Shown here in pieces: positions 2,429-45,933 of a DNA stretch of 64,000 bases. Where the stretch lies: NCBI GenBank assembly GCA_002721545.1, contig PBKR01000030.1:5150-69149 (forward strand), read 5' to 3'. Position numbers and translations under genes: made by a program. Source of the stretch: Nitrosomonadaceae bacterium (GTDB lineage Bacteria; Pseudomonadota; Gammaproteobacteria; Burkholderiales; Nitrosomonadaceae). The notes under the pieces are model-generated. The model was given only the letters and a program-made list of their open reading frames with translations. It did not search any database and had not been told where the DNA came from. Within the stretch, counting starts at the first letter, position 1. The number at the start of each line of letters is the position of its first letter.

Positions 2429-3379
2429 ATGTCCTATGATAGCTTAATGGTTTTTACCGGTACCGCTAATCCGAAGCTGGCTCAGGATGTGGTAAGGCAT
2501 CTTAATATTCATCTTGGGCGTGCAACGGTTAGTCGTTTTAGTGATAGTGAGATAATGGTTGAGATCCTAGAGAATGTACGTGGTAAGGATGTTTTTATAT
2601 TACAGTCAACTTGCATGCCCTCAAATGATAGTTTGATGGAGGTTTTAGTCATGGTAGATGCACTAAAGCGCGCTTCTGCTGGACGTATTACTGCAGCAAT
2701 TCCCTATTTTGGCTATGCACGCCAGGATAGAAGGCCTCGTTCAGTACGGGTCCCAATTACAGCAAAAGTTGTAGCAAATCTACTTACTACTGTTGGAATT
2801 GATAGGCTGTTAACAATGGATCTGCATTCTGACCAGATTCAAGGTTTTTTTGATATATCTGTGGATAATGTTTATGGTATGCCAATTCTTCTTGGAGACG
2901 TATGGACATCTAATTACAAGAATTTAATTGTAGTTTCACCTGATGTAGGGGGTGTGGTTCGAGCAAGAGAAATGGCTAAAAGGCTGGAATGTGATTTGGC
3001 TATTATAGATAAGCGACGTCCTAAGCCTAATGTTGCTAAAGTAATGAATATTATTGGTGAAGTTAAAGGGCGTACTTGCGTTATTATGGATGACATGGTC
3101 GATACAGCTAACACATTATGTGAAGCAGCTAGAGTATTAAAAGCGCAAGGCGCACAGAGTGTAGTAGCTTATTGTACTCATCCAGTTCTTTCTGGAGAGG
3201 CTGTAAAACGTATTGAGAACTCTGAGTTAGATAAATTAGTAGTGACAGATACAATTCCTTTACGTGAAGATGCTAAAGCTTCTAGTCGTATTCAACAGCT
3301 GAGTGTGGCAAGTTTATTAGCAGAAACTATGTTAAGGATTATTAATGAAGATTCAGTAAGCTCCCTGTTTATGGAGTAA
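2429..3379 (+). CDS. prs: ribose-phosphate pyrophosphokinase
   Basis: Full-length Prs-like sequence ([22 protein letters not shown]-binding loop [11 protein letters not shown]). Confidence 0.95.
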
Positions 3380-33397: not shown

Positions 33398-34882
33398 TTA
33401 TGTGCCACAGAAAGTTTCATGAACAATTTGTTCTGGTCGTGGTGCTCGAGCATATTTTTCCAGCGCTGCTTGGTATTCAAAGGGTTGCTTTACAACATCT
33501 ATAAGTTGATGAAAAAGATTAAAATCTTTATTCTCTACAGCTGCTTTGATAGCCTCTTCAATAAGATGGTTACGAGGGATAAAGGCGGGGTTCAGTGTAT
33601 ACATTTCAGTTTGTCTTTTTTTAGGGGACTGTGTGCTTTTTGCTAATCTTTTTTTCCAGATTTTTAGCCAATAATTGAATTTTTCAGAACAAATGATAAG
33701 AGTTCCTATATTTGTCTTAGTATCATTACCTGCTAGATCTGATAGATATCGAAAGGTTAAAGTATAATCCATTTTATCCTTAGCCATTATATCGAGTAAG
33801 TCTTTAGTGAGTTTTATATCGCCTCGCATATTATGACGTAAGCCAAGTTTCATCATCATGCCAGTTTGATATGATTCTGTTAATAAATTCATATATTTAT
33901 CAAGAGCATCTTGTGCTAATTTTATGGCTCTTTCTCGATTATTATCCAAGAAAGGAATTAAAGTCTGAGCGAGTTGCATTAAATTCCAGCATCCGATGGC
34001 AGGTTGTTTGTTATAAGCATAACGACCATTGTGATCAATAGAACTAAATACAGCACCAGGATTAAATGTATCCATAAAAGCACATGGGCCATAATCAATT
34101 GTTTCTCCAGATAGCAGCATATTATCTGTATTCATAACTCCATGAATAAAACCTATCCTTTGCCAGGAAGAAATTAGGTGTGCCTGGCTTCTAATGACAG
34201 CATCGAGCATTGCAAGAACTGGATTTTCGTTGTTGGTAGCTTCGGGATAATGCCGTTTTATAACATGATTGATTAGAATTTTTAGGCTTTCTTGATCATC
34301 TCGAGAATAGAAGAATTCGAATGTACCGATACGGATATGACTTTTTGCAATACGGACAAGAATAGCACCGGGTAAAATATTTTGTCGATATACATGATCA
34401 CCAGTTGCAGCAGCAGCTAATATCCGTGTTGTAGAAATATGCAAAGAAGCCATGGCCTCACTTACTATGTATTCACGTAAAATAGGCCCTAATGGTGCAC
34501 GACCATCGCCTCCTCGCGAATAAGGAGTAGGACCAGAGCCTTTTAATTGAAAATCATAGCGCTCTTTTTGGTTGTCTAAAATTTCACCTAGTAGAATTGC
34601 GCGACCATCACCTAATTGTGGACTCCACATACCAAATTGATGCCCAGCATAAACAGTAGCAATTGGATCCCCCCCATCTGGGACTATATTGCCTGCAATT
34701 GTTGATACTCCTTCATTGGATTCTAACCATGTTGAATCAATGTTCAGTTTCTGAGCTAACGTATGATTGATTTTGATAAGAGAAGGTGCAGAAACAGGGA
34801 CTGGATTCTGGCGCGTATAAAATTGACTAGGCAGTCGAGCATAGCTGTTATCAAAATGGATAGGGGCTTTTGTTTTTAACAA
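33398..34882 (-). CDS. selO: protein adenylyltransferase (AMPylase) SelO
   Basis: SelO/YdiU pseudokinase features (FDNSYARLP, QLGDGRA, HGVMNTDNM). TTG start. Confidence 0.9.
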   Translation of the reverse strand: MLKTKAPIHFDNSYARLPSQFYTRQNPVPVSAPSLIKINHTLAQKLNIDSTWLESNEGVSTIAGNIVPDGGDPIATVYAGHQFGMWSPQLGDGRAILLGEILDNQKERYDFQLKGSGPTPYSRGGDGRAPLGPILREYIVSEAMASLHISTTRILAAAATGDHVYRQNILPGAILVRIAKSHIRIGTFEFFYSRDDQESLKILINHVIKRHYPEATNNENPVLAMLDAVIRSQAHLISSWQRIGFIHGVMNTDNMLLSGETIDYGPCAFMDTFNPGAVFSSIDHNGRYAYNKQPAIGCWNLMQLAQTLIPFLDNNRERAIKLAQDALDKYMNLLTESYQTGMMMKLGLRHNMRGDIKLTKDLLDIMAKDKMDYTLTFRYLSDLAGNDTKTNIGTLIICSEKFNYWLKIWKKRLAKSTQSPKKRQTEMYTLNPAFIPRNHLIEEAIKAAVENKDFNLFHQLIDVVKQPFEYQAALEKYARAPRPEQIVHETFCGT

Positions 34883-35276: not shown

Positions 35277-36278
35277 TTAATCTTTTAATTCCGCATAATT
35301 ATGCATATGCGCTTTTCTAATTATTTCCATTTCTTCATTAAATTTGTTTGCTACTTTTTTTCCTTGTAATTTTACAAATTCTAGGAATGCAAGTGTTACA
35401 GGAGACAATTTTTTATTCTTTGGGTGCACTAGATACCAGTATCGATGGATAGGAAGCCCTTGGACATCTAATATTGCAATTGGCCCCGATGTTCCTTCCA
35501 ATGCTAGTGAATGCATAGATAATATTGATACACCTAGTTCTGCTACAACTGCCTGCTTAAGCGCCTCATTACTGGCAAGTTCCATATGACCGTCTGGTGT
35601 TTTCAGTCCTTTGCTTGCAAATAGACGGTTGATGGCATCACGCGTACCTGAGCCTGGTTCACGAAGAATAAATGGTTCTTCAAGAAAGCGTTCGAGTGGA
35701 ATATTCGGTACGCCTGCTAATGGATGATTACAGCTTGCCATTGCGACTAATGGATTTGGTATGAACGGGTAAGATATAACATCAAGTTCCGGTGGTGGCT
35801 CGCCTAGAATGCATAGATCATCTTCATATCCAGTAAGGCGTTCTAGAATGTGTTCTCGATTTTCAATACTCAAGGAGAAATCAACATCCGGATGCAATCG
35901 GCCAAATTGACCAAGTAGATCTGGTACAAGGTATTGAGAAGAAGTAATGATAGCTAGACGTAAGTGCCCACATTTGACCCCTTTAATATCCGATATTTTT
36001 GCTTCAAGGTTAGTAATATTATCAAATATTTCCTGGCATATTGTATATACTTCGTTACCTGCTTCAGTTAGGTGAATTCGTATTCCTCTCTGCTCAAATA
36101 GCGGTAAACCAACGGTGTCAGCAAGTTTCTTGAGCTGCATTGATACAGTGGGCTGAGCTAAAAATAGCTCTTCTGATGCGCGTGTAAAGCTATTGTTGCG
36201 TGCCACAGACTCAAAGACTTGAAGTTGCCGTAAAGTTATGTGTCGCGCAAGGTTGCTTACTAAATTTGTAGACTTCAA
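35277..36278 (-). CDS. cbbR: LysR-family transcriptional regulator of the RuBisCO/carboxysome operon
   Basis: LysR wHTH (ITLRQLQVFESVARNNSFTRASEELFLAQPTVSMQLKKL). Divergent from cbbL, the classical CbbR arrangement. TTG start. Confidence 0.8.
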   Translation of the reverse strand: MKSTNLVSNLARHITLRQLQVFESVARNNSFTRASEELFLAQPTVSMQLKKLADTVGLPLFEQRGIRIHLTEAGNEVYTICQEIFDNITNLEAKISDIKGVKCGHLRLAIITSSQYLVPDLLGQFGRLHPDVDFSLSIENREHILERLTGYEDDLCILGEPPPELDVISYPFIPNPLVAMASCNHPLAGVPNIPLERFLEEPFILREPGSGTRDAINRLFASKGLKTPDGHMELASNEALKQAVVAELGVSILSMHSLALEGTSGPIAILDVQGLPIHRYWYLVHPKNKKLSPVTLAFLEFVKLQGKKVANKFNEEMEIIRKAHMHNYAELKD

Positions 36279-36742: not shown

Positions 36743-38155
36743 ATGGCAGGAAAAACATACAAAGCTGGCGTCAAGGATTATCGTGATAGTTACTGGACAC
36801 CAAACTATATCCCCCTCGATACAGACTTGCTAGCTTGCTTTAAAATTGTAGCACAGGAGGGAGTTCCACATGAAGAGGCTGCTGCTGCAGTTGCTGCGGA
36901 ATCTTCTACAGGCACATGGACAACTGTGTGGACTGATTTGCTAACTGACATGGAATATTATAAGGGTCGTGCTTACCGGATTGAGCAGGTTCCAGGTGAT
37001 GATTCTGCATTCTATGCATTTGTTGCTTATCCTATTGATTTATTTGAAGAAGGTTCAGTTGTTAATGTGTTGACCTCATTGGTTGGTAATGTATTTGGTT
37101 TTAAAGCTATACGTAGTTTGCGACTAGAAGATGTACGCTTTCCGATCGCCTTTGTTAAGACCTGTGGTGGCCCACCAAATGGTATACAGGTGGAGCGTGA
37201 TCGCATGAATAAATATGGCCGTGCTTTGCTAGGTTGTACTATCAAGCCAAAGCTTGGCTTGTCTGCAAAGAACTATGGTATGGCTGTATATGAGTGCCTA
37301 CGTGGTGGTCTTGATTTTACTAAGGATGATGAGAATGTTAATAGTCAGCCATTTATGCGTTGGCGCCATCGTTTTGAATTTGTGATGGAAGCAGTTTTAA
37401 AGTCTCAAGCTGAAACTGGAGAACGTAAAGGTCACTATCTGAATGTAACTGCAGCAACGCCAGAAGAGATGTATAAAAGAGCTGAATTTGCAAAAGAGTT
37501 GGGTGCTCCAATTATAATGCATGATTATTTAACTGGTGGGCTCTGTGCTAATACTGGCTTAGCAAACTGGTGTCGTGATAATGGAATATTATTGCATATT
37601 CACCGTGCCATGCATGCTGTATTAGATCGTAATCCCTATCATGGGATCCATTTCCGAGTATTAACTAAGGTTTTAAGGTTGTCAGGTGGTGATCATTTAC
37701 ACTCTGGTACTGTAGTTGGTAAGTTAGAAGGGGATAGAAATGCAACCCTAGGCTGGATTGATTTGATGCGTGAATCATTTGTTCCAGAGAATAGAGAACG
37801 TGGTGTTTTCTTTGATCAAGATTGGGGTTCTATGCCTGGTGTGATACCAGTTGCTTCAGGCGGCATTCATGTTTGGCATATGCCTGCTCTCGTTAATATA
37901 TTTGGTGATGATTCCTGTTTACAATTTGGAGGGGGAACACTTGGCCATCCATGGGGTAATGCTGCAGGTGCCACTGCAAACCGAGTAGCCCTAGAAGCTT
38001 GTACTGATGCACGAAATCAGGGGCGTCCTGTAGAGCGTGAAGGGAAAGAAGTGTTAACCGAAGCTGCACAGCATTCACCTGAACTAAAAATTGCCATGGA
38101 GACATGGAAAGAAATTAAATTTGAATTCGATACTGTAGACAAGATTGATACATAA
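36743..38155 (+). CDS. cbbL: RuBisCO large subunit, form IA
   Basis: Full-length form I large chain ([22 protein letters not shown] with the carbamylated Lys, [11 protein letters not shown]). Carboxysome-linked, hence form IA. Confidence 0.97.
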
Positions 38156-38197
38156 ATATTATTACGTCAATTAAAATTGAAATTATGAGGTATAGCT

Positions 38198-38536
38198 ATG
38201 GATGAAGTCAGACCGTATAAAGCAACTGAACGTAGAGGAGAGACATTCTCATATCTGCCGCCATTCACACCTGAGAAGATTCGTAAGCATATTGCTTATA
38301 TGATTTCTCAAGGCTGGAATCCGGCTATTGAACATACTGAACCAGAAAAATTATTTTCTAATTTTTGGTATCTATGGAAGCTACCATTCTTTGGTGAGAA
38401 ATCAGTTGAAAAAGTAATGGCAGAAATAGATGCATGTCATCGTGCAAATTCAGGACATCTTGTACGTTTAACCGGATTTGATAATTACACACAATGCCGT
38501 GGCACAGCTTTTATTGTTCATCGTGGTGGACGTTAA
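38198..38536 (+). CDS. cbbS: RuBisCO small subunit
   Basis: Typical 112-aa form IA small chain (ETFSYLPP, QGWNPAIEH, FWYLWKLPFFG). Confidence 0.95.
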   Translation: MDEVRPYKATERRGETFSYLPPFTPEKIRKHIAYMISQGWNPAIEHTEPEKLFSNFWYLWKLPFFGEKSVEKVMAEIDACHRANSGHLVRLTGFDNYTQCRGTAFIVHRGGR

Positions 38537-38623: not shown

Positions 38624-40768
38624 ATGAGTAAAAATATATCAAAATCTGACACCTTATTTGACGTCCAAACTGGACGTGATGCATCTCGTATGAGGCGTGC
38701 ACAACTAGTAGCTGGAAAAGTAGGCTTGCCACCTATTAAAGAACGTGTGCGTACAAATGAGCATAATGCTAAAAATAAAGAAGTGATTATTGAGCCTACA
38801 GATATATTGCCATCAGCTGTTATTGAAACTAAAAGCACTGATAAGACGTCATTAGTAGGCCGTGATGCATCCCGTGCTCGACGTGCAACATTAATCCAAG
38901 GTAAAAATGGAATATTGCAGTCTGCTGCAATTGAAACGAACTCAGGTTCTGTTTTGGATGAGGCTGATGAATGTACTGGTCAAGATGATTGCTCTTGTAG
39001 TGAGGAAAAAGAAGACCGATTATTTGCAAAGCCTATTCGTAGTGGAAGCAAAAATAAAGGGAACAGAAACAAAGGAAACCAAGCAAGAGTCAGGGATATT
39101 ACGACGCGGCCAAGTGGTCGTTTGCGTCAAGCTAATCCGGTTAAGTATCCACCTAAAGTGGCTGAAAGTGAAAGCTATGCAGGTCACAAAGTGACTGGAG
39201 TTCGTATTGGTCGGGGAGAGAATGTTACAGGAGATGAGCGCGGATCTTCCGTTCAAGTAACTGGTAATCAGTATATTGGAAAAGAGACTGGTTACAATCC
39301 TCGAGAAGGTGGTATTAAAGTTGGGGCTAGTAAAACATCTGGTGGACAAACTGTAACTGGGTCACAGGTACGTAGTAAGATAAGTATTACAGGAGATGAG
39401 TCTAATCCTGAATTAAATATTACTGGAGCGGCTGATCAGGAGCTGAATGATGATCTGTTGCAACATCGGGAGCAGGGGAGCGATGCTGCACAGACTCAGT
39501 TTCAACGGCAAAATGATCCGCATGGTCATACTGTATTTGGCGCCAATCTTGGGCGCTCTGTCAAAACAATTGGTTCTCGCAATCGCAACATTGAATATAG
39601 TAAAGAAGAATCTATGGGAGGACGTCCAATTACGGGTACTGCAGTTGGTCGAAGTGAACTAACAACCGGTGATGAAAGTGGATCTTGTCATGATATTACA
39701 GGTAGCCAGTATTTAATGCCGGCAGTAAAGCAGCCATTATGTGAAACTAATGGGCGCGAAGTACCAAAGAAAGTTGGTATTAGCCATACGTTGTACGGTA
39801 CACGTACAACTGGAACCCAAGTTGGCCAGCGTATACACCAATCTGGAAATATTACTGGTACAGCAGAAGAGGGTACTTGCCAAGATATTTCTGGTACTGA
39901 ATATTCCAGTGCTGAAGAGTATAAAAGCCACTGTGGAATAACACCTACTCGAGCTGGTAATGAAAATGGGGCTAATGCTTCAACATGGGGCGGGCAATAT
40001 GTGACAGGTGTAGATATAGAGCATAATGAACGCGTAACAGGAGATGAACCTGGCGCATGTAATGCGATTACTGGCACACCTTATGCGGGACCAAATCAGT
40101 ATCAGACTTTTTGTTCTGTTGAGAGCGAGAATAAAGCTGAGCAGTTGGTTTCACCAGAAATGGCATCAGGTAATCATGTTAGCGGTGATATTACGATCAA
40201 CGTTGATAAGGTTTCAGGTACACAACGAGGCAGTGAGAAAGATATTACGGGCACATCGTATTATTGTGCTAATCCCGATAAAGATATTAGTACAGATGTA
40301 ATGAAGAATCTTCAAAAAATAAACAACAGCTTTAGTGTAAAGACTCCACAACGAGAATATCAGGAACTAGCTGGTTTTGATGCTATCAATGCTCCAACTG
40401 CAGAAAGTCGTATTACTGGTGCGTTTTCGGTTGGTGAAGGAAAGGTTACTGGTAATAACGAATTTCGTTTTCACCCTAGATCAACGGCTGAGGCTAATGC
40501 ACGTGTAACGGGAGAAGGACGCGTGGAGGGTAGGACTATAACTGGTAGCGCGTGGACATCAAAAGATAATGTAACTGGAACCGAAGGTCATATTGCTGCT
40601 GAGCGTAATCCAAGTGAGCGGCAAGGTAGCTCACATGCTTTTGCCAACTCAAAACTATTTAAGGATAAGGGTAGCAAACCTGAGCCTACGCATCATGTTA
40701 CAGGGATGGTAGGTTGGTCACCTAAAACCTCTGCTCGTATTACATACTCAGGCGGAGCACATGGTTAA
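38624..40768 (+). CDS. csoS2: carboxysome scaffold protein CsoS2
   Basis: Basic, repeat-rich 714-aa protein. Two N-terminal RuBisCO-binding-type motifs (GRDASRMRRAQLVAGKVG and GRDASRARRATLIQGKNG), many [VI][TS]G triplets with Cys-containing middle repeats (SCHDITGSQY, TCQDISGTEY, ACNAITGTPY), and C-terminal VTG repeats. Confidence 0.9.
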   Translation: MSKNISKSDTLFDVQTGRDASRMRRAQLVAGKVGLPPIKERVRTNEHNAKNKEVIIEPTDILPSAVIETKSTDKTSLVGRDASRARRATLIQGKNGILQSAAIETNSGSVLDEADECTGQDDCSCSEEKEDRLFAKPIRSGSKNKGNRNKGNQARVRDITTRPSGRLRQANPVKYPPKVAESESYAGHKVTGVRIGRGENVTGDERGSSVQVTGNQYIGKETGYNPREGGIKVGASKTSGGQTVTGSQVRSKISITGDESNPELNITGAADQELNDDLLQHREQGSDAAQTQFQRQNDPHGHTVFGANLGRSVKTIGSRNRNIEYSKEESMGGRPITGTAVGRSELTTGDESGSCHDITGSQYLMPAVKQPLCETNGREVPKKVGISHTLYGTRTTGTQVGQRIHQSGNITGTAEEGTCQDISGTEYSSAEEYKSHCGITPTRAGNENGANASTWGGQYVTGVDIEHNERVTGDEPGACNAITGTPYAGPNQYQTFCSVESENKAEQLVSPEMASGNHVSGDITINVDKVSGTQRGSEKDITGTSYYCANPDKDISTDVMKNLQKINNSFSVKTPQREYQELAGFDAINAPTAESRITGAFSVGEGKVTGNNEFRFHPRSTAEANARVTGEGRVEGRTITGSAWTSKDNVTGTEGHIAAERNPSERQGSSHAFANSKLFKDKGSKPEPTHHVTGMVGWSPKTSARITYSGGAHG

Positions 40769-40892: not shown

Positions 40893-41165
40893 ATGAAAAT
40901 TTGCCAAGTAGAAGAGACATTAGTAGCGACAGCACGTATTGGACAGCTTGGTACCCGCCGCTTGTTGGTGGTTAGGGAAAGAGATAGCGCTAGTAGGCAG
41001 GTAGCAGTTGATCCAGTTGGTTGTAAGGAAGGTGACTGGGTAATAGTTGCTGGTAGTTCAGCTGCCCGAGCTGCTGCAGGTAGTAATGATTATCCAAGTG
41101 ATTTCACTATTGTTGGGATTATCGATTATTGGGAAGAAGAATTAAATAGTGGAAAAAAGAAGTAG
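40893..41165 (+). CDS. csoS4A: carboxysome vertex (pentamer) protein CsoS4A, EutN/CcmL family
   Basis: Close to CsoS4A as I recall it from Halothiobacillus (MKI.QVE.TLV...RI, RQVAVD..GC..GDWV, GSSAAR.AAGS..YPSD.TI.GIID.W). Confidence 0.85.
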   Translation: MKICQVEETLVATARIGQLGTRRLLVVRERDSASRQVAVDPVGCKEGDWVIVAGSSAARAAAGSNDYPSDFTIVGIIDYWEEELNSGKKK

Positions 41166-41170
41166 GTTAA

Positions 41171-41425
41171 ATGGATATACAACGTGTTGTGCGAGATTTG
41201 GTTACGACAAAGCGTAATTCTTGGTTAGCTTCCAAATCATTACGTGTCGTTGAAGATGCTTCGGGTACTTTGAGTGTTGCGTTGGATCCTGTTGGCTGTA
41301 AGCCGGGCGATTTTGTCATTACTATGGGGGGAACAGCTGCAAGATTAGCTACTGATAATCCAAAAATTACTACCGATCTAACTATCGGCGGGATTATTGA
41401 TCATTGGAGCGAAGATGATTGGTAA
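41171..41425 (+). CDS. csoS4B: carboxysome vertex protein CsoS4B, EutN/CcmL family
   Basis: CsoS4B-like sequence (LRV.EDA.G..SVA.DP.G...G..V....G.AAR, TDLTIGGIIDHW). Confidence 0.85.
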   Translation: MDIQRVVRDLVTTKRNSWLASKSLRVVEDASGTLSVALDPVGCKPGDFVITMGGTAARLATDNPKITTDLTIGGIIDHWSEDDW

Positions 41426-41518: not shown

Positions 41519-41800
41519 ATGGCAAATGAAAAAATGGGTATAGCGTTAGGGATGATTGAAACGCGTGGCTTAGTTCCGGCAATTGAGGCAGCTGATGCCA
41601 TGACTAAAGCATCTGAAGTTCGTCTTATTGGGCGGCAATTTGTTGGTGGTGGTTATGTCACCATATTGGTTCGTGGTGAAACTGGTGCTGTGAATGCTGC
41701 AGTTCGTGCTGGTGCTGATGCTTGTGAACGTGTTGGTGATGGTTTAGCAGCTGCACATATAATTGCTCGTCCACATACAGAAGTAGAACAGATTTTATAA
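41519..41800 (+). CDS. csoS1: carboxysome shell hexamer protein CsoS1 (BMC-H), copy 1
   Basis: Canonical BMC domain GIALGMIETRGLVPAIEAADAMTKASEVRLIGRQFVGGGYVT..VRGETGAVNAAVRAGADA. Confidence 0.95.
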   Translation: MANEKMGIALGMIETRGLVPAIEAADAMTKASEVRLIGRQFVGGGYVTILVRGETGAVNAAVRAGADACERVGDGLAAAHIIARPHTEVEQIL

Positions 41801-41818
41801 GGCCAAAGGAGTTAAATT

Positions 41819-42151
41819 ATGGCAAACGAAAAATTGGGTATAGCATTAGGGATGATCGAAACTCGTGGTTTGGTTCCAGCAGTAGAAGCAGCTGATGCTA
41901 TGACTAAAGCATCAGAGGTTCGTCTTATTGGGCGGCAATTTGTTGGTGGTGGTTATGTCACCATATTGGTTCGTGGTGAAACTGGTGCTGTGAACGCAGC
42001 AGTTCGTGCTGGTGCCGACGCTTGTGAACGCGTTGGTGATGGTTTGGCTGCAGCACATATTATTGCGCGCCCTGATAGTGAAATAGAACCGATTCTTACG
42101 GTTAAAGCTACTGCTCAAGGTGGTCGTGATAGTGAAGTTACTGGTAAATAG
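41819..42151 (+). CDS. csoS1: carboxysome shell hexamer protein CsoS1 (BMC-H), copy 2 with C-terminal extension
   Basis: Near-identical to copy 1 over about 90 aa, plus a 17-aa tail (TVKATAQGGRDSEVTGK) reminiscent of CsoS1B-type extensions. Confidence 0.95.
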   Translation: MANEKLGIALGMIETRGLVPAVEAADAMTKASEVRLIGRQFVGGGYVTILVRGETGAVNAAVRAGADACERVGDGLAAAHIIARPDSEIEPILTVKATAQGGRDSEVTGK

Positions 42152-42228
42152 AGCTGATACAGTTTAGTTTTTTATAATAGTATAAAATATTTTAATAATA
42201 TAGTTATACCAAGTAAATTATGTTTATG

Positions 42229-42263
42229 TAGTAGTTGTTGAATTACAATTCTAGCAACTACTA
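42229..42263 (+). terminator. imperfect long hairpin after the csoS1 genes (possible intra-operon attenuator or RNA-stability element)
   Basis: TAGTAGTTG..TGAATT-AC-AATTC..CAACTACTA: 9-bp outer stem plus 5-6-bp inner stem. The following T-tract is weak (TATTATT). Confidence 0.3.
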
Positions 42264-42386
42264 TATTATTCAGTACAGTTTATTTAAGACAGTAATTAAT
42301 ATATAAAAAATTTGTTACTAGGATTTAGTTGTATTAGAAAATATCTATTTGGTACAGCATAAATATCAAATAGGAGGAGTTTCGAT

Positions 42387-43787
42387 ATGAGTGGGAGTCT
42401 TATAAAATATTCAAGGAATACTGAGAATGCACCAAAAAGTTCCGTTTCTACACAAACTGTAGCTTTCTCTCATTATAATAATGTTTCAGCTCAGTTACCT
42501 GTAGATCCTAAAACTGGAGAAATTGTACCTGGTGATGTACAGGCACAGGCAAGGCAATGCTTAATAAATATTAAAGCAATTGTAGAAAGCATCGGTCATG
42601 TTATGGACGATGTTGTTAAAATTAATATATTTCTTAAGAATATTTCAGATATCTACGCTGTAGATGCAGTATACACACCATTTTTTCAAAGCTATTTTCC
42701 TACTCGTACAGCAGTTGGGGTTGTTGATTTACCTATGAGTAATGCTTTAGTACAAATTGATGCAGTGATTTCAAATGGTGAAGGTACGCCTTCGACTTCA
42801 TTTTCACCCTCAGAAGAACCTTGTGATCTTATTCCACCATTTGGTTTGCATAATAATCAGGCACAGAATTTTATGCATAATCAAATGAGAGTTAGGGTTG
42901 AGCGTAATCCTGTGATCAATGTTCCAATAAGCCAGCAACCAGGAAAATTGGTAAGAAATACAGAGAATGCACCAAAAAATCCTATATCGTCTCAAAATGT
43001 AGCTTTTTCTCATTACAGTAATATTTCAGCTCAATTACCAATTGACCCAAAATCAGGCCAATTGGTAGCTGGTGGTATAAAAGAACAGACAGGGCAATGT
43101 CTAAAAAATATTAAGTCAATTTTAGAAAGTATTGATGTACCTTTTGATGATATTGTGAAGGTAACTATTTTTCTTAGGAATCTTTCAGATATTCAGGCTG
43201 TGAATGAAGTTTACACAACATTTTTTCCAGATTCTGGTATTGCTAGAGCTGTAGCTTATACTCCTGCACGGACAATATTTGTTGTCTCAGGTTTGCCAAT
43301 GGATTCTTTAGTACAAGTTGATGTAGTTATCTCACATGGAGATGGTACTCCTCCTCAAGCTGTTGAAGATAGGCATGGACTTATAATCAGAGCAAGTAAT
43401 ACGGAGGGTGCCCCAAGAAATTCTATACACACACAAACGGTAGCCTTTTCTCATTATAATCATATTGCAGCTCAATTACCTATTGACCCTAAATCAGATC
43501 AGATAATAGCAGGCGGTGTAAAAGAGCAAGCTGAGCAGTGCTTAAGAAATATCAAAGCAATTGTGGAAAGTGTTGACCATGTTATGGATGATATAGTTAA
43601 AATAAATATTCAACTTAAGAATATTGCAGATATTGGTATTGTAAATACAATTTATACTACCTTTTTCAAAGGCGACCTTCCTGCAAGAACAGTAGTTGGC
43701 GTTTCTGCTATCTCTATGGGTGCTTTGGTACAAATTGATGCAGTTGTATCTAATGGTGAGGGAACTCCGCCAAATTTTGCAAAATAG
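42387..43787 (+). CDS. single-chain triple RidA/YjgF/YER057c (Rid family) domain fusion protein
   Basis: GGAGGAG RBS. Three tandem Rid domains, each about 130 aa (aa 5-135, 186-322, 331-461). Each runs from NTE(N/G)AP...VAFSHY...AQLP.DPK...QC(L).NIK.I(V/L)ES to LVQ(I/V)D.V(I/V)S.G(E/D)GTP. Each retains the Arg of the F/T/L-P-x-R-T motif (R107, R295, R434). Confidence 0.8.
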   Translation: MSGSLIKYSRNTENAPKSSVSTQTVAFSHYNNVSAQLPVDPKTGEIVPGDVQAQARQCLINIKAIVESIGHVMDDVVKINIFLKNISDIYAVDAVYTPFFQSYFPTRTAVGVVDLPMSNALVQIDAVISNGEGTPSTSFSPSEEPCDLIPPFGLHNNQAQNFMHNQMRVRVERNPVINVPISQQPGKLVRNTENAPKNPISSQNVAFSHYSNISAQLPIDPKSGQLVAGGIKEQTGQCLKNIKSILESIDVPFDDIVKVTIFLRNLSDIQAVNEVYTTFFPDSGIARAVAYTPARTIFVVSGLPMDSLVQVDVVISHGDGTPPQAVEDRHGLIIRASNTEGAPRNSIHTQTVAFSHYNHIAAQLPIDPKSDQIIAGGVKEQAEQCLRNIKAIVESVDHVMDDIVKINIQLKNIADIGIVNTIYTTFFKGDLPARTVVGVSAISMGALVQIDAVVSNGEGTPPNFAK

Positions 43788-43944
43788 TAGTACAGGCTAA
43801 CAATACTTTATTGAGCTAGGACCTCAATAACCATCAGAAGAATTAAGTTATATTAGTTTAGTGCTATAGCATTATTGAAGTTTCTGGCATCATTTAATAT
43901 TTTTAATACGGTTAATGTATTATTAATATACTCTAGGGACAGTA

Positions 43945-44199
43945 ATGGATAAAGAAAATGTTGAGTACTGGACTACCAAGGGTAATCCACCTGGTCTGTT
44001 TAGACGATTCGAATTCGAAAACTATAATAAACTTCGAATTTTCTTGGATCGTCTTGCCGATTTATCTAAGGAGAAAGAATATTATCCGGATATCAGTTTT
44101 GGAGTAACTTATGCCAATATTACTATATATGCTAGTGATGCAAAAGAATTAAGTGTTGAGGATAAAGCGTTTGCACATAGTGTAGATAAGTTAATTTAG
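43945..44199 (+). CDS. pterin-4a-carbinolamine dehydratase-like protein (alpha-carboxysome RuBisCO assembly factor, acRAF-like)
   Basis: 84-aa PCD fold pattern (F.F.N......FL.R.A.L....EYYPDISF....ANITI). The catalytic HHP of true PCDs is replaced by YYP, as described for acRAF. Located in the cso locus. Confidence 0.7.
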   Translation: MDKENVEYWTTKGNPPGLFRRFEFENYNKLRIFLDRLADLSKEKEYYPDISFGVTYANITIYASDAKELSVEDKAFAHSVDKLI

Positions 44200-44214: not shown

Positions 44215-44853
44215 ATGGATACTGGAGTAATAGCAGTTGCAAATCAGAAGGGAGGAGTCGGTAAGACGACTATAGCCATGAATATGGCTGCTGGTTTAAT
44301 TCGCCGCGGGAGTTGTATTGTAATTGATTCAGATCCTCAAGGCTCTGCTACATTGTGGACAGAGTTATCAGGAGATCCGAGTAGATTTCCAGTAGACGTA
44401 GTTTTAGCAGAGAATAAATTAGATAAACAGGTAGCGCAGTTGCAAAGAAAATTTGATTACATAATTATTGATAGTCCACCAGAGATTAAATCCGGTTCTA
44501 TAATGAGTGTAATGTCAATTGCTCAAATTTTACTTGTACCTTTATTGCCATCACCTATGGACTTATGGTCGAGCACTCGTATAGAGGAATTAATTAAACG
44601 TGCGAAGAAAAAAAATCCAAAGATATTAGCATTTATTTTGCTTAATCAAATTGAGCCTAGAAGTGCAATGTCTCGCGGGATGGATGAGGCATTACAGGAA
44701 ATTGATATTCCTGTATTACGTAATCGTTTAGGTCGTCGTGCAAGCTACCGGACATCAGCTCTAGAAGGGTGTAGTGTTTATGATCTTGGCTATCGTGGGC
44801 GAGTCGCATCTGAAGAAATTGATGGTATTATTGATGAGGTGTTAGGACTATGA
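44215..44853 (+). CDS. mcdA: ParA-type ATPase, carboxysome positioning protein McdA-like
   Basis: Deviant Walker A NQKGGVGKTT with signature Lys, Walker B IIIDSPP. Located in the cso locus directly upstream of a McdB-like gene. Confidence 0.8.
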   Translation: MDTGVIAVANQKGGVGKTTIAMNMAAGLIRRGSCIVIDSDPQGSATLWTELSGDPSRFPVDVVLAENKLDKQVAQLQRKFDYIIIDSPPEIKSGSIMSVMSIAQILLVPLLPSPMDLWSSTRIEELIKRAKKKNPKILAFILLNQIEPRSAMSRGMDEALQEIDIPVLRNRLGRRASYRTSALEGCSVYDLGYRGRVASEEIDGIIDEVLGL

Positions 44854-45167
44854 GTAAAGGGATTTTTTCTAAGAAATTGGCTGCTAGTACACGTAAGGCT
44901 AAAAAAATTATTCCAGAAGTGAAACCAAGATCTGCATCAACATTAGTTACTAACCAAAAGAAAGCTAAGAAAATTATTCCAGAAGTGAAACTAAAATCTG
45001 CATCATCATTAGTTGTTAATCGAAAAAGAGCTAAAAAAATTATTTCAGATGTGAATCTAAAAGCTGTATTATTACGGGAATTAACATCTCCAAGTGATAT
45101 TTTAAATCCTACTGATTCAAAGCTTCTTTTAAATCAGCAATATGAGGAACGAATCTGGCCTGATTGA
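44850..45167 (+). CDS. mcdB: McdB-like disordered, repeat-containing partner of McdA
   Basis: 4-nt ATGA overlap with mcdA. 105 aa, very basic, with 22-aa tandem repeats (KAKKIIPEVK.(R/K)SAS(T/S)LV.N.K). Trp is third from the C-terminus (..ERIWPD), matching the published hallmark of alpha-McdB proteins. Confidence 0.65.
   Translation: MSKGIFSKKLAASTRKAKKIIPEVKPRSASTLVTNQKKAKKIIPEVKLKSASSLVVNRKRAKKIISDVNLKAVLLRELTSPSDILNPTDSKLLLNQQYEERIWPD
44898..45070 (+). repeat. 66-bp tandem repeat, about 2.6 copies, inside mcdB
   Basis: Copies start at 44898, 44964 and 45030 (each GCTAA(A/G)AAAATTATT(C/T)CAGA). Copies 1 and 2 differ at roughly ten positions. Confidence 0.85.
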
Positions 45168-45235: not shown

Positions 45236-45586
45236 TCAGTCCTTATTGCTAACCTCAACGTGTTGGATTTTTCCATTGTAGACTATTACATATTCTTTGC
45301 CAGATCGTTGTACCACTTCTCCATCAAGGGTTATGCCAGTGAAGGTGAAATCAAAAAGAACTATTCCCGGCTTAACCTCTTTGATGTTATGCACATTCCA
45401 TCCTAAAGTGTCGAAACCGGAGAAAAACTTTGTTTGCATATCCATAATTTGATCAGAGCCAAGGAAAATATCTTTATTCGCTGAGCTATAGGTGCTTGAA
45501 GATGTGAATAGTTTCTTAATTTCTGTTAGCTTTCCTTTATTAGAAAGTTCAAAGTATTTTTTTGCTAGCTGAACAGTATCAGTCAT
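45236..45586 (-). CDS. NTF2-like (SnoaL-like) domain protein
   Basis: 116 aa with the alpha+beta cone pattern typical of NTF2-family proteins (AKKYFEL...G.L..I..LF..., ...V.FDFTF.G...DGE...R.G.EY....NGKI). Convergent with the cso operon. Confidence 0.55.
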   Translation of the reverse strand: MTDTVQLAKKYFELSNKGKLTEIKKLFTSSSTYSSANKDIFLGSDQIMDMQTKFFSGFDTLGWNVHNIKEVKPGIVLFDFTFTGITLDGEVVQRSGKEYVIVYNGKIQHVEVSNKD

Positions 45587-45857: not shown

Positions 45858-45933
45858 TGGTGGGTCGTGGGAGGATCGAACTCCCGACCTTCGGATTAAG
45901 AGTCCGTTGCTCTACCAGCTGAGCTAACGACCC
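45858..45933 (-). tRNA. tRNA-Lys (anticodon CUU)
   Basis: The reverse complement is GGGTCGTTAGCTCAGCTGGTAGAGCAACGGACTCTTAATCCGAAGGTCGGGAGTTCGATCCTCCCACGACCCACCA. Anticodon loop CT-CTT-AA. Confidence 0.9.

What the first reader, a model, noticed from the sequence alone, without database searches (positions are those of the whole stretch)
42387..43787. Single-chain triple-RidA (Rid family) fusion protein embedded in the alpha-carboxysome operon
Seen in sequence: a 466-aa ORF with a strong GGAGGAG RBS lies on the operon strand between csoS1 and the acRAF-mcdA-mcdB genes. It consists of three tandem RidA/YjgF-type domains (aa 5-135, 186-322, 331-461). Each domain starts NTE(N/G)AP..VAFSHY and ends LVQ(I/V)D.V.S.G(E/D)GTP. 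A 50-aa Pro/Gln/Asn-rich linker joins domains 1 and 2, and an 8-aa linker joins domains 2 and 3. Domain 2 carries an insertion (PDSGIARAVAY). Each domain keeps the Arg equivalent to RidA R105 (R107, R295, R434). The canonical GPY and the conserved Glu are changed (FSHY, and QID/QVD). Established knowledge: RidA proteins are obligate homotrimers with active sites at subunit interfaces. The Arg is diagnostic of the imine/enamine-deaminase clades (RidA, Rid1-3). Known alpha-carboxysome accessory genes are csoS1D, bacterioferritin-like, acRAF, McdAB and CbbQ/O. I know of no Rid protein among them. Inference: the fusion should fold as a covalent pseudo-trimer with three non-equivalent sites. It sits where csoS1D or bfr-like genes usually are, in a locus that also lacks csoSCA. 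Candidate roles, all speculative, are a carboxysome-associated metabolite-damage enzyme, a threefold-symmetric shell or pore partner, or part of a replacement for the missing CA function.
Basis: partly seen in the sequence, partly recalled or inferred. Interest (0 to 1): 0.85.

Follow-up and report, generated by a model that had tools for sequence, protein, structure and literature searches.

The report
Carboxysome-linked triple-RidA with disordered insertion
A known type of three-in-one RidA enzyme has picked up a disordered linker segment and become a fixed neighbour of the CO2-fixing carboxysome genes in planktonic Nitrosomonadaceae whose carboxysome loci lack the usual carbonic anhydrase, which makes it a candidate new carboxysome-associated protein.

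Summary
ORF 42387-43787 (+) encodes a 466-aa protein with three Rid/YjgF domains, and it lies between csoS1 and acRAF in an alpha-carboxysome locus that lacks csoSCA.

The fusion itself is not new. It is the '3x-RidA' architecture named by Niehaus et al. 2015. This subfamily occurs in at least 546 species-level genomes, and in the 76 non-Nitrosomonadaceae genomes whose context was read it is a 410-423-aa gene with no cso linkage.

The apparently new part is a clade of planktonic 'Nitrosomonadaceae' MAGs. Every context I read there places the gene no more than 2 kb from a csoSCA-less cso cluster, in at least 5 different gene arrangements and in different genomic neighbourhoods.

All 54 proteins of that type, and none of 139 short ones, carry a 52-92-aa insertion between domains 1 and 2. 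The insertion is predicted disordered, contains a conserved motif (Q-x-[QR]-NFM-[RH]) and is under purifying selection. The folded domains and the catalytic Arg residues are unchanged.

My best reading (confidence 0.48) is that an ordinary 3x-RidA was recruited to the carboxysome through a linker short linear motif, by analogy with the N-terminal peptide of CsoSCA. A carbonic-anhydrase-replacement role is unsupported but not excluded (about 0.08). All evidence is comparative-genomic.

The parts
42387..43787 (+). 3x-RidA coding sequence (466 aa plus stop)
42373..42379 (+). Shine-Dalgarno GGAGGAG. The roughly 35 bp before the ATG are the only upstream DNA conserved between gene arrangements.
42396..42779 (+). 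Rid domain 1 (aa 4-131); Arg107 at 42705-42707
42780..42938 (+). Clade-specific disordered insertion in the domain 1-2 linker (aa 132-184). Short forms have only about 8-9 residues (QEPCDLIK) here.
   Evidence: pLDDT 31-43; dN/dS 0.2-0.6
42855..42899 (+). Conserved short linear motif within the insertion (aa 157-171, NQAQNFMHNQMRVRV; core Q-x-[QR]-NFM-[RH]-[EDN]-x-M). It is duplicated in longer relatives.
42939..43343 (+). Rid domain 2 (aa 185-319), with a subfamily-wide 8-11-aa loop insertion at aa 281-291 (43227-43259); Arg295 at 43269-43271
43344..43376 (+). Short linker between domains 2 and 3 (aa 320-330, PPQAVEDRHGL), conserved across the subfamily
43377..43760 (+). Rid domain 3 (aa 331-458); Arg434 at 43686-43688
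42228..42264 (+). RNA hairpin in the 235-bp csoS1-to-3x-Rid spacer; possible attenuator after csoS1
   Evidence: spacer fold z = -2.75
43788..43890 (+). About 100 bp of 3' flank that is conserved with the gene in the other arrangements, so the gene moved as a compact cassette
35277..36278 (-). cbbR (LysR regulator), divergent from cbbL
36743..38536 (+). cbbL (36743-38155) and cbbS (38198-38536), form I Rubisco
38624..40768 (+). csoS2, with two N-terminal GRDASR.RR......GK repeats. It is followed directly by csoS4A, with no csoSCA between them.
40893..41425 (+). csoS4A (40893-41165) and csoS4B (41171-41425)
41519..42151 (+). Two csoS1 BMC-H shell genes (41519-41800, 41819-42151)
43945..44199 (+). 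acRAF-like gene (Pterin_4a family)
44215..45167 (+). ParA-type mcdA (44215-44853) and mcdB-like gene (44850-45167; three 22-aa repeats, C-terminal RIWPD)

Best explanation
The gene encodes a member of the known 3x-RidA class, in which three Rid domains in one chain fold as a covalent pseudo-trimer.

In one clade of planktonic Nitrosomonadaceae (the window is identical to a Tara Oceans MAG, GCA_002448775.1) this protein was recruited into the alpha-carboxysome gene module. The recruitment did not change the enzyme. The folded domains and the three substrate-binding Arg residues cannot be told apart from those of heterotroph orthologues. What changed is the linker between domains 1 and 2, which gained a 52-92-residue intrinsically disordered insertion with a conserved short linear motif (Q-x-[QR]-NFM-[RH]-[EDN]-x-M, one or two copies).

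Inferred mechanism. The disordered segment tethers the pseudo-trimer to a carboxysome component, with Rubisco the most likely target by analogy with the CsoSCA and CsoS2 peptides. The protein is then co-assembled with, or held at, the carboxysome. There it carries out the same chemistry as elsewhere: Arg-anchored binding of a small 2-imino or 2-oxo carboxylate and hydrolysis.

Shown: the architecture, the clade-specific insertion, its predicted disorder and selective constraint, and the invariant linkage to csoSCA-less loci.

Inferred: the physical association, the binding partner and the substrate.
For: 1. Linkage. All contexts read for insertion-bearing proteins (window/L001-4, L005, L009, L010, L011, L012, L091, L092, L093, L094/95) lie no more than 2 kb from cso genes. 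None of the 76 loci with 410-423-aa forms does.

2. The gene occupies at least 5 positions:
- csoS1-[X]-acRAF (window)
- mcdB-[X] with gaps of about 30 bp (L005, L012, L091, L094)
- acRAF-[X] (L092, L093)
- SelO-[X]-cbbR (L009, whose CbbL is 97% identical to the window's)
- tRNA-[X]-cbbR (L010, L011)
The cso-plus-X block also sits in different genomic neighbourhoods.

3. Insertion. It is present in 54 of 54 long proteins and 0 of 139 short ones, and there are no near-fixed substitutions in the folded domains.

4. The insertion is predicted disordered (pLDDT 31-43, against more than 90 for the domains). It is under purifying selection: dN/dS is 0.21-0.61, against 0.10-0.35 for the domains, in pairs with dS of at least 0.2.

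5. Precedent. CsoSCA is encapsulated through a disordered N-terminal short linear motif that binds Rubisco, and such motifs are evolutionarily plastic (PMC10614612).

6. The catalytic Arg is conserved in 53-54 of 54 sequences per domain. Arg is the essential RidA residue, while Tyr17 and Glu120 are dispensable (PMC4433059).

7. The gene's composition equals that of the genome, so it is a long-resident gene.
Against: - There is no direct evidence of transcription, of the protein, or of its localisation.
- All cso-linked members form one clade, or two sister groups in a weakly resolved NJ tree. Recruitment is therefore effectively a single evolutionary event, and some of the adjacency could be inherited synteny.
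- In three lineages (L009-L011) the gene is outside the operon and convergent with cbbR, so it is not co-transcribed with the cso genes there.
- The motif shows no detectable similarity to the clade's own CsoS2 Rubisco-binding repeats (0 of 52 linkers at p<0.05), and it occurs in no other protein of the loci.
- No imine-generating reaction is known inside carboxysomes.
- Part of the insertion in the longer forms looks like slipped duplications of the N-terminal strand of domain 2 (KVARNTENEPGKFARNPEPYP), which could be structurally neutral.
Confidence: 0.48

Rival explanations
1. Co-located housekeeping enzyme. The 3x-RidA stays cytosolic and does generic imine/enamine damage control. An example would be protecting PLP enzymes of glycine/serine and phosphoglycolate-salvage metabolism that run in proportion to Rubisco activity. 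Its position next to cso reflects co-regulation or inherited synteny, and the linker insertion serves some other purpose or is a tolerated expansion.
For: - The folded domains are identical in kind to those of heterotroph orthologues.
- In heterotrophs the commonest immediate neighbours, though rare, are PLP-dependent enzymes. There are 4 PALP proteins, 2 of them threonine dehydratases. Nitrogen-catabolic genes also occur: OTCase, carbamate kinase, XdhC and urease accessory genes.
- In L009-L011 the gene is a separate transcription unit.
- Only one 3x-Rid locus of this subfamily from the complete chromosome OZ252054.1 appears among the best 80 hits. The cso-linked copy is therefore probably the cell's only copy and must also cover any ancestral role.
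Against: - This does not explain why an insertion with a conserved motif under purifying selection co-occurs perfectly with cso linkage.
- It does not explain why the gene remains adjacent through at least 5 rearrangements and different chromosomal neighbourhoods.
- These are small AT-rich genomes (2.2-2.4 Mb; 36.6% GC in the window). From general knowledge of streamlined genomes, such genomes rarely keep 50-90 useless residues.
Confidence: 0.27
2. Functional replacement of CsoSCA. The 3x-RidA, tethered in the carboxysome, supplies the missing HCO3-/CO2 interconversion or a related one-carbon carboxylate reaction such as carbamate breakdown. It would use its Arg-lined inter-domain pockets and the subfamily-specific invariant His, Cys and Asp residues. 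That would make it a new kind of carbonic anhydrase.
For: - Every cso locus with the gene lacks csoSCA, DabAB and any other recognisable CA, and the whole 64-kb window has none.
- The nearest outgroup has csoSCA and no 3x-Rid.
- How csoSCA-less carboxysomes work is an acknowledged open question (PMC9164163; PMC9239080).
- The subfamily has invariant His, Cys, His and Asp residues that canonical RidA lacks.
- Some heterotroph copies sit beside urease or carbamate-kinase/carbamoyltransferase genes.
Against: - The fold and sequence are plainly Rid, with no similarity to any CA class.
- The same protein, with identical invariant residues, occurs in at least 546 species-level genomes. In the 76 loci sampled outside the Nitrosomonadaceae clade, the nearest flanking genes include no CA, SulP or DabA.
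- The independent csoSCA-less Pseudonocardia-type locus has no 3x-Rid.
- From memory, Thiomicrospira solves the same problem with an iota-CA. I did not retrieve that paper here.
- The co-occurrence amounts to a single evolutionary event.
- A CA gene elsewhere in these genomes could not be excluded.
Confidence: 0.08
3. Non-catalytic structural or chaperone role. The pseudo-trimer acts as a cross-linker or holdase for Rubisco. It would take over the Rubisco-binding and scaffolding side of CsoSCA, or the role of the lost ferritin-like protein, or it would work together with the adjacent acRAF in Rubisco assembly.
For: - The gene is adjacent to acRAF in the window and in L092/L093.
- It occupies the position of the ferritin-like gene in the outgroup.
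- Longer relatives have two motif copies, which would give multivalency.
- A chaperone activity has been reported for chlorinated RidA. This is my recollection and was not retrieved here.
Against: - The catalytic Arg and all pocket residues stay strictly conserved in the clade, which argues for retained ligand binding or catalysis.
- The window protein has a single motif copy, so it is monovalent and a poor cross-linker.
Confidence: 0.1

Closest known systems
[quoted passage not shown] 2015, BMC Genomics, PMC4433059; example EF_0115 of Enterococcus faecalis)
   Same: - Three tandem PF01042 domains in one chain of about 400-470 aa, presumed to be a covalent trimer.
- The R105-equivalent Arg is present in each domain.
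- The AF2 model is compact (pTM 0.86).
   Different: - This protein belongs to one very conserved subfamily: a single 50%-identity cluster, at least 61% identity across phyla.
- Tyr17 is replaced by Ser or His, and Glu120 by Gln.
- There are extra invariant His, Cys, His and Asp residues.
- The carboxysome-linked clade has in addition a 52-92-aa disordered insertion between domains 1 and 2.
RidA / YjgF / UK114 homotrimeric imine deaminases (e.g. E. coli RidA 1QU9, P. horikoshii PH0854 2DYY, goat UK114)
   Same: - Each domain superposes at about 1 A rmsd, with target-normalised TM-score 0.90-0.96.
- Sequence identity is 26-40%.
- The carboxylate-binding Arg is conserved.
   Different: - It is a single chain rather than three subunits, so the three sites are not equivalent. 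Only domain 2 has the loop insertion, and domain 2 lacks the loop His.
- The Glu and Tyr of the classical site are replaced.
CsoSCA encapsulation peptide / CsoS2 N-terminal repeats (short linear motifs in disordered regions that bind Rubisco; Blikstad et al. 2023, PMC10614612)
   Same: - It is a disordered segment with a short conserved motif attached to a folded enzyme encoded in a cso locus.
- The motif sequence is lineage-specific.
- The copy number varies.
   Different: - The segment is internal, between two domains, not N-terminal.
- There is no detectable sequence similarity to the RxxxxxRRxxxxxxGK repeat of this clade's CsoS2 or to PRLDLIEQA.
- Binding has not been tested.
Atypical csoSCA-less alpha-carboxysome loci (USF Genomics Class/Sutter/Kerfeld/Scott 2022, PMC9164163; Great Lakes Nitrosospira NspGL1, PMC9239080)
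   Same: - The locus has cbbLS-csoS2-csoS4AB-csoS1 with no csoSCA, in Nitrosomonadaceae.
- Its function is unexplained.
   Different: Those descriptions mention no Rid protein. Here a 3x-RidA is a constant member or neighbour of the locus. The Pseudonocardia-type csoSCA-less locus lacks it.

Membership tests
Rid (YjgF/YER057c/UK114) superfamily, PF01042 | Significant match to the family profile | tested here: met
   PF01042 matches three stretches (E 4.2e-68, 227.3 bits against a cut-off of 27.3). There are 47 PDB Rid hits.
Rid (YjgF/YER057c/UK114) superfamily, PF01042 | Chorismate-mutase-like alpha/beta fold of the monomer | tested here: met
   The AF2 domains have pLDDT above 90. Foldseek against RidA monomers gives target-normalised TM 0.90-0.96 and rmsd 0.9-1.5 A.
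Rid (YjgF/YER057c/UK114) superfamily, PF01042 | Trimeric assembly with inter-subunit clefts | tested here: inconclusive
   A whole-chain pTM of 0.86 implies confident packing of the three domains. No single-chain 3x-Rid structure is in the PDB.
RidA subfamily (imine/enamine deaminase) | Arg equivalent to R105, which is essential for activity | tested here: met
   R107, R295 and R434 align with R105. They are conserved in 53-54 of 54 cso-linked sequences and 137 of 139 other sequences.
RidA subfamily (imine/enamine deaminase) | Tyr17 and Glu120 of the classical site | tested here: not met
   Tyr17 aligns to S21/S201/H348 and Glu120 to Q123/Q310/Q449. Alanine substitutions at these positions had little effect on S. 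enterica RidA (PMC4433059), so this failure is not disqualifying.
RidA subfamily (imine/enamine deaminase) | Curated subfamily model TIGR00004 | tested here: inconclusive
   The whole protein scores 263.6 bits against a cut-off of 106.25, but that is the sum of three domains, so each domain alone would fall near or below the cut-off.
RidA subfamily (imine/enamine deaminase) | 2-aminoacrylate / 2-iminoacid deaminase activity | not testable with these tools
   This needs an enzyme assay or complementation of a ridA mutant.
3x-RidA architecture (Niehaus 2015) | Three RidA-type domains fused in tandem in one polypeptide | tested here: met
   The definition is quoted.
Alpha-carboxysome component / accessory protein | Encoded in or next to the cso locus, conserved across relatives | tested here: met
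   11 contexts representing at least 8 distinct lineages, in at least 5 arrangements, all no more than 2 kb from cso genes. The gene is absent from the outgroup locus L096 and from the Pseudonocardia-type locus L097.
Alpha-carboxysome component / accessory protein | Co-transcription with cso genes | not testable with these tools
   Indirect evidence only. Gaps to mcdB are about 30 bp in L005, L091 and L094. The window has a 235-bp spacer with a hairpin. In L009-L011 the gene is a separate unit. The consensus promoter scan was uninformative (34 sites against 35 expected).
Alpha-carboxysome component / accessory protein | Targeting or encapsulation determinant | tested here: inconclusive
   The clade-specific insertion is disordered, carries a conserved motif and is under purifying selection. 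It shows no similarity to the CsoS2 repeat, and no binding test was possible.
Alpha-carboxysome component / accessory protein | Physical presence in carboxysomes | not testable with these tools
   This needs proteomics of purified carboxysomes or heterologous assembly.
Carbonic anhydrase (any known class) | Sequence or fold of a known CA class (alpha, beta/CsoSCA, gamma, iota and others) | tested here: not met
   Only Rid families match. All structural neighbours are Rid proteins. CsoSCA tblastn is negative.
Carbonic anhydrase (any known class) | CO2/HCO3- interconversion activity | not testable with these tools
   This needs MIMS or stopped-flow assays and complementation of CA-free strains.

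The most novel reading that the evidence does not exclude
In these abundant planktonic Nitrosomonadaceae the linker-tethered 3x-RidA is the functional substitute for the missing carboxysomal carbonic anhydrase. A Rid-fold pseudo-trimer would catalyse HCO3-/CO2 interconversion, or carbamate-to-CO2 conversion, inside the carboxysome. That would define a new carbonic anhydrase class and would explain how one group of csoSCA-less carboxysomes works.
Probability: 0.08. Interest if true: 0.92.

Novelty: new variant of a known kind. Interest (0 to 1): 0.6.

Why it matters
Alpha-carboxysome loci without a carbonic anhydrase are an acknowledged puzzle (PMC9164163). In streamlined freshwater Nitrosospira the missing gene was put down to an incomplete assembly (PMC9239080).

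This analysis shows three things for a clade of planktonic Nitrosomonadaceae MAGs. The published parallel, NspGL1, is an ammonia oxidiser, but no amo genes were seen in the DNA examined here.
- The absence of csoSCA is real in complete chromosomes.
- One extra gene, a 3x-RidA with a clade-specific disordered insertion, always travels with the locus.
- The insertion is the only thing that distinguishes the carboxysome-linked protein from its orthologues in heterotrophs.

This gives a concrete and cheap experimental handle: test whether the 50-aa linker targets cargo to carboxysomes, and whether the protein has deaminase or CA activity.

If the protein is encapsulated, it would be a new class of alpha-carboxysome cargo and a new natural encapsulation tag. 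It would also be the first functional context for the very conserved but uncharacterised 3x-RidA subfamily. If it is not encapsulated, it is a co-regulated housekeeping enzyme and the finding is minor.

Tried and rejected
1. The first AlphaFold2 run, on 16 near-identical sequences, failed (pLDDT 37). It was rescued by adding diverse 3x-Rid representatives.

2. Resemblance of the linker motif to the CsoS2 Rubisco-binding repeat. I suspected this by eye. A PSSM test against shuffled linkers rejected it (0 of 52 at p<0.05).

3. The 116-aa SnoaL-like ORF (45236-45586, -) as a conserved iota-CA-type partner. It is present only in the window's own species and absent from L005 and L009-L012, so I rejected it as a clade-wide component.

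4. A search for a dissolved-inorganic-carbon theme around heterotroph orthologues.
- Urease clusters (5 loci) and carbamate kinase/OTCase/XdhC clusters (5-6 loci) looked suggestive.
- A bulk Pfam count of 147 flanking genes shows no dominant partner and no CA, SulP or DabA.
- These contexts fit generic nitrogen and PLP metabolism at least as well.

5. DabAB or any CA in the window: none was found.

6. The idea that csoSCA-less loci in general carry a 3x-Rid is rejected by the Pseudonocardia-type locus.

7. Recent horizontal insertion of the gene into the operon is rejected, because GC and GC3 equal those of the genome. The gene did move as a compact cassette: only about 35 bp upstream and about 100 bp downstream are conserved.

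8. The Nitrosospira multiformis csoSCA-less locus could not be inspected.

9. I could not test whether the invariant His, Cys, His and Asp residues cluster in three dimensions, because model coordinates are not exposed.

10. The literature searches for Rid, L-PSP or deaminase together with carboxysome or microcompartment found nothing relevant.
Full report
OBSERVATION

The ORF at 42387-43787 (+) is real. It has an ATG start and encodes 466 aa. GGAGGAG lies at 42373-42379, 7 nt before the start codon.

Pfam PF01042 (Ribonuc_L-PSP) matches three separate stretches (E 4.2e-68). NCBIfam TIGR00004 also matches three stretches. 47 solved Rid proteins match one or other domain.

csoS2 is followed after 124 bp by csoS4A. 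tblastn with an outgroup CsoSCA finds nothing in the window.

In an alignment of the three domains with E. coli RidA, the canonical GPY (Tyr17) aligns with S21/S201/H348, not with FSHY. R105 aligns with R107/R295/R434, and Glu120 with Q123/Q310/Q449.

THE FUSION IS A KNOWN AND WIDESPREAD ARCHITECTURE

Niehaus et al. [quoted passage not shown] They presumed these to be covalently linked trimers, and noted rarer two- and four-domain forms.

- A scan of one genome per species found at least 546 species encoding a relative of this protein. The best 80 span Vibrio, Photobacterium, Marinobacter, Psychrobacter, Clostridium, Desulfosporosinus, Bacillus, Bacteroidales, Chloroflexi and others, at 61-72% identity.
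- In an exhaustive search of 1.84 billion cluster representatives, the close subfamily collapses into a single 50%-identity cluster. Dozens of further clusters of 380-430 aa match with three Rid stretches at 28-46% identity.
- In heterotrophs the gene is essentially a loner. Among 147 nearest flanking genes in 76 loci there are 151 Pfam families. The most frequent ones occur only 3-4 times: PLP-dependent enzymes including two threonine dehydratases, thioredoxin, TetR, HupE/UreJ and carbamoyltransferase. No carbonic anhydrase or bicarbonate transporter appears.

STRUCTURE

A first AlphaFold2 run on a shallow alignment failed (pLDDT 37). With diverse 3x-Rid sequences added, the model is confident: mean pLDDT 84.5 and pTM 0.86.

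- The three domains (aa 4-131, 185-319, 331-458) are above 90.
- Low confidence is confined to aa 132-184, the domain-2 loop at 283-288, the linker at 320-330 and the termini.
- Each domain superposes on RidA monomers at about 1 A, with target-normalised TM 0.90-0.96. No single-chain 3x-Rid has been solved.
- The high pTM supports a compact pseudo-trimer. I could not measure the inter-domain geometry, because coordinates are not exposed.

WHAT IS SPECIAL HERE: A CLADE IN WHICH THE GENE TRAVELS WITH THE CARBOXYSOME LOCUS

The window's protein is identical to one from a Tara Oceans 'Nitrosomonadaceae bacterium' MAG (GCA_002448775.1). Using the window's cso proteins as tblastn probes against all fetched loci, cso genes are found within 10 kb only in the Nitrosomonadaceae MAG loci, and in none of the 76 others.

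Three more divergent relatives (65-69% identity) from other metagenomes are also cso-linked. The gene occupies at least five positions:

| Position of the gene | Loci |
|---|---|
| Between csoS1 and acRAF | window |
| About 30 bp after the mcdB-like gene | L005, L012, L091, L094/95 |
| Directly after acRAF, with no mcdAB | L092, L093 |
| Between SelO and a convergent cbbR | L009 (CbbL 97% identical to the window's; the same PEPC-orf133-SelO flank) |
| Between a tRNA and cbbR | L010, L011 |

Only about 35 bp upstream and about 100 bp downstream of the gene are shared between arrangements, so it moved as a compact cassette. The chromosomal neighbourhoods of the whole cso-plus-Rid block also differ between lineages.

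Every one of these loci lacks csoSCA, DabAB and the ferritin-like gene. The nearest outgroup (L096) has DabAB, csoSCA and a ferritin-like gene exactly where the window has the Rid gene, and it has no Rid. The gene's GC (0.36) and GC3 (0.19) match the genome's.

THE LINKER INSERTION

All 410-423-aa forms join domains 1 and 2 with about 8-9 residues (QEPCDLIK). All cso-linked forms have 52-92 residues there. In a de-duplicated set, 54 of 54 long proteins have the insertion and 0 of 139 short proteins do.

There is not a single near-fixed substitution between the two groups in the folded domains. The Arg residues, the Gln at the Glu120 position and the subfamily-specific invariant His, Cys, His and Asp residues are equally conserved in both groups.

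- The insertion carries a conserved core, Q-x-[QR]-NFM-[RH]-[EDN]-x-M. It occurs once in the window (aa 157-171) and twice in longer relatives (QARNFMREMAFHSQARNFMRDQMRTG).
- Many relatives also show partial duplications of the first strand of domain 2.
- The motif occurs in no other ORF of the window or the clade loci.
- The insertion is predicted disordered.
- It evolves two to three times faster than the domains but under purifying selection. dN/dS is 0.21-0.61, against 0.10-0.35 for the domains, in pairs with dS of at least 0.2. One very close pair is too noisy to use.
- It does not resemble the clade's CsoS2 Rubisco-binding repeats (GRDASR.RR......GK) in a PSSM test against shuffled linkers.

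INTERPRETATION

The only thing that distinguishes the carboxysome-linked protein from its heterotroph orthologues is a constrained disordered segment with a short linear motif. That is how alpha-carboxysome cargo is known to be recruited. CsoSCA binds Rubisco through a disordered N-terminal peptide. Its motif is lineage-specific and differs from the CsoS2 motif, although both bind the same site (PMC10614612).

I therefore favour recruitment of an otherwise ordinary 3x-RidA to the carboxysome through the linker (confidence 0.48), with its catalytic chemistry unchanged. The essential Arg is kept. The Tyr and Glu that are replaced are dispensable in S. enterica RidA.

The rivals are:
- **Cytosolic, merely co-located enzyme (0.27).** This is supported by the separate transcription unit in L009-L011 and by the weak association with PLP enzymes in heterotrophs.
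- **Non-catalytic scaffold or chaperone role (0.10).**
- **Replacement of CsoSCA's catalytic function (0.08).** This is attractive because csoSCA-less carboxysomes are an open puzzle (PMC9164163; PMC9239080) and no CA is visible in any locus or in the 64-kb window. However, the fold is plainly Rid. The identical protein is also common in heterotrophs with no inorganic-carbon context. An independent csoSCA-less locus lacks it, and the co-occurrence rests on what is effectively one evolutionary event.

NOVELTY AND LIMITS

The architecture is known. The carboxysome-linked variant with its insertion is, as far as the searchable literature shows, undescribed. All evidence is comparative-genomic plus a structure prediction. 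Transcription, localisation, binding partner and substrate are inferences.

I could not scan whole genomes of the clade for a CA elsewhere. I also could not inspect the Nitrosospira multiformis locus, or examine the model's coordinates.

Noticed in passing
window 45236-45586 (-): A 116-aa SnoaL_2-like (NTF2-fold) ORF lies convergent with the end of the cso operon and overlaps an 80-aa ORF on the + strand. From my recollection, iota-carbonic anhydrases share this fold. The ORF is present only in the window's own species and not in the other clade loci.
   Followed up: partly
window 45858-45933 (-), with a terminator-like hairpin at 45849-45818: tRNA-Lys(CTT) lies just beyond the locus. In an otherwise identical contig (L002) a phage-type integrase and a 242-aa gene replace the PEBP gene at this point. 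L005 also has an integrase about 9 kb downstream. The end of the locus looks like an integration hotspot.
   Followed up: partly
L005, L010, L011, L012, L091, L093, L096, L097 (not in the window): A fusion protein of about 320 aa (NUDIX plus TMP-TENI, i.e. MutT-like plus thiamine-phosphate-synthase-like) recurs directly beside cso loci, both in this clade and in the outgroups, including the Pseudonocardia-type locus.
   Followed up: partly
window 42387-43787; residues H29/H209/H356, C58/C238/C385, H71/H398, D75/D255/D402: These residues are absent from canonical RidA but are 100% invariant in 193 subfamily sequences. Domain 2 lacks the loop His (V251). Whether they form a site, for example for a metal, could not be tested without coordinates.
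   Followed up: partly
L017, L021, L034 (Oceanisphaera); L029, L030 (Marinobacter): The 421-aa 3x-Rid gene sits at the end of a urease cluster. In Oceanisphaera it is on the same strand, about 200 bp after hupE/ureJ. In Marinobacter it is divergent from ureD. So the association is kept at different ends of the cluster in two genera.
   Followed up: partly
L044, L045, L046, L065, L072, L078, L015 (Photobacterium, Vibrio, Moritella): The 3x-Rid gene lies beside carbamoyltransferase (OTCase-like), carbamate-kinase-like and XdhC/YqeB-like genes. This is reminiscent of the E. coli ygeW-yqeA-yqeB nitrogen-heterocycle catabolic cluster; the resemblance is from memory.
   Followed up: partly
P0030 (Laribacter hongkongensis, 579 aa; L007), P0002 (634 aa), P0023 (565 aa): Laribacter P0030 carries a fourth Rid domain. 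P0002 and P0023 are long enough for four domains but were not checked. P0002 also carries the cso-type linker insertion. How a four-domain chain would satisfy a threefold assembly is unclear.
   Followed up: no
window 44850-45167 (+): The McdB-like protein has three tandem 22-aa repeats (…KKAKKIIPEVK.KSAS.LV.N.) and ends in RIWPD. It has no Pfam hit.
   Followed up: no
window 41620-41663 and 41920-41963 (+): Identical stretches inside the two adjacent csoS1 genes give duplicate hits in the terminator scan. The two shell genes are recent or homogenised duplicates.
   Followed up: no
window 29989-32766 (+) and 33398-34882 (-): PEP carboxylase, another enzyme that uses HCO3-, and the SelO/YdiU protein adenylyltransferase lie immediately upstream of cbbR. 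The same flank is kept in L009. SelO also recurs a few kb from the cso locus in L094/L095.
   Followed up: no
L010:~400-475 and L011:~3190-3265: A tRNA gene with a TGT (Thr-type) anticodon loop lies directly upstream of the 3x-Rid gene in the arrangement where the gene is next to cbbR.
   Followed up: no
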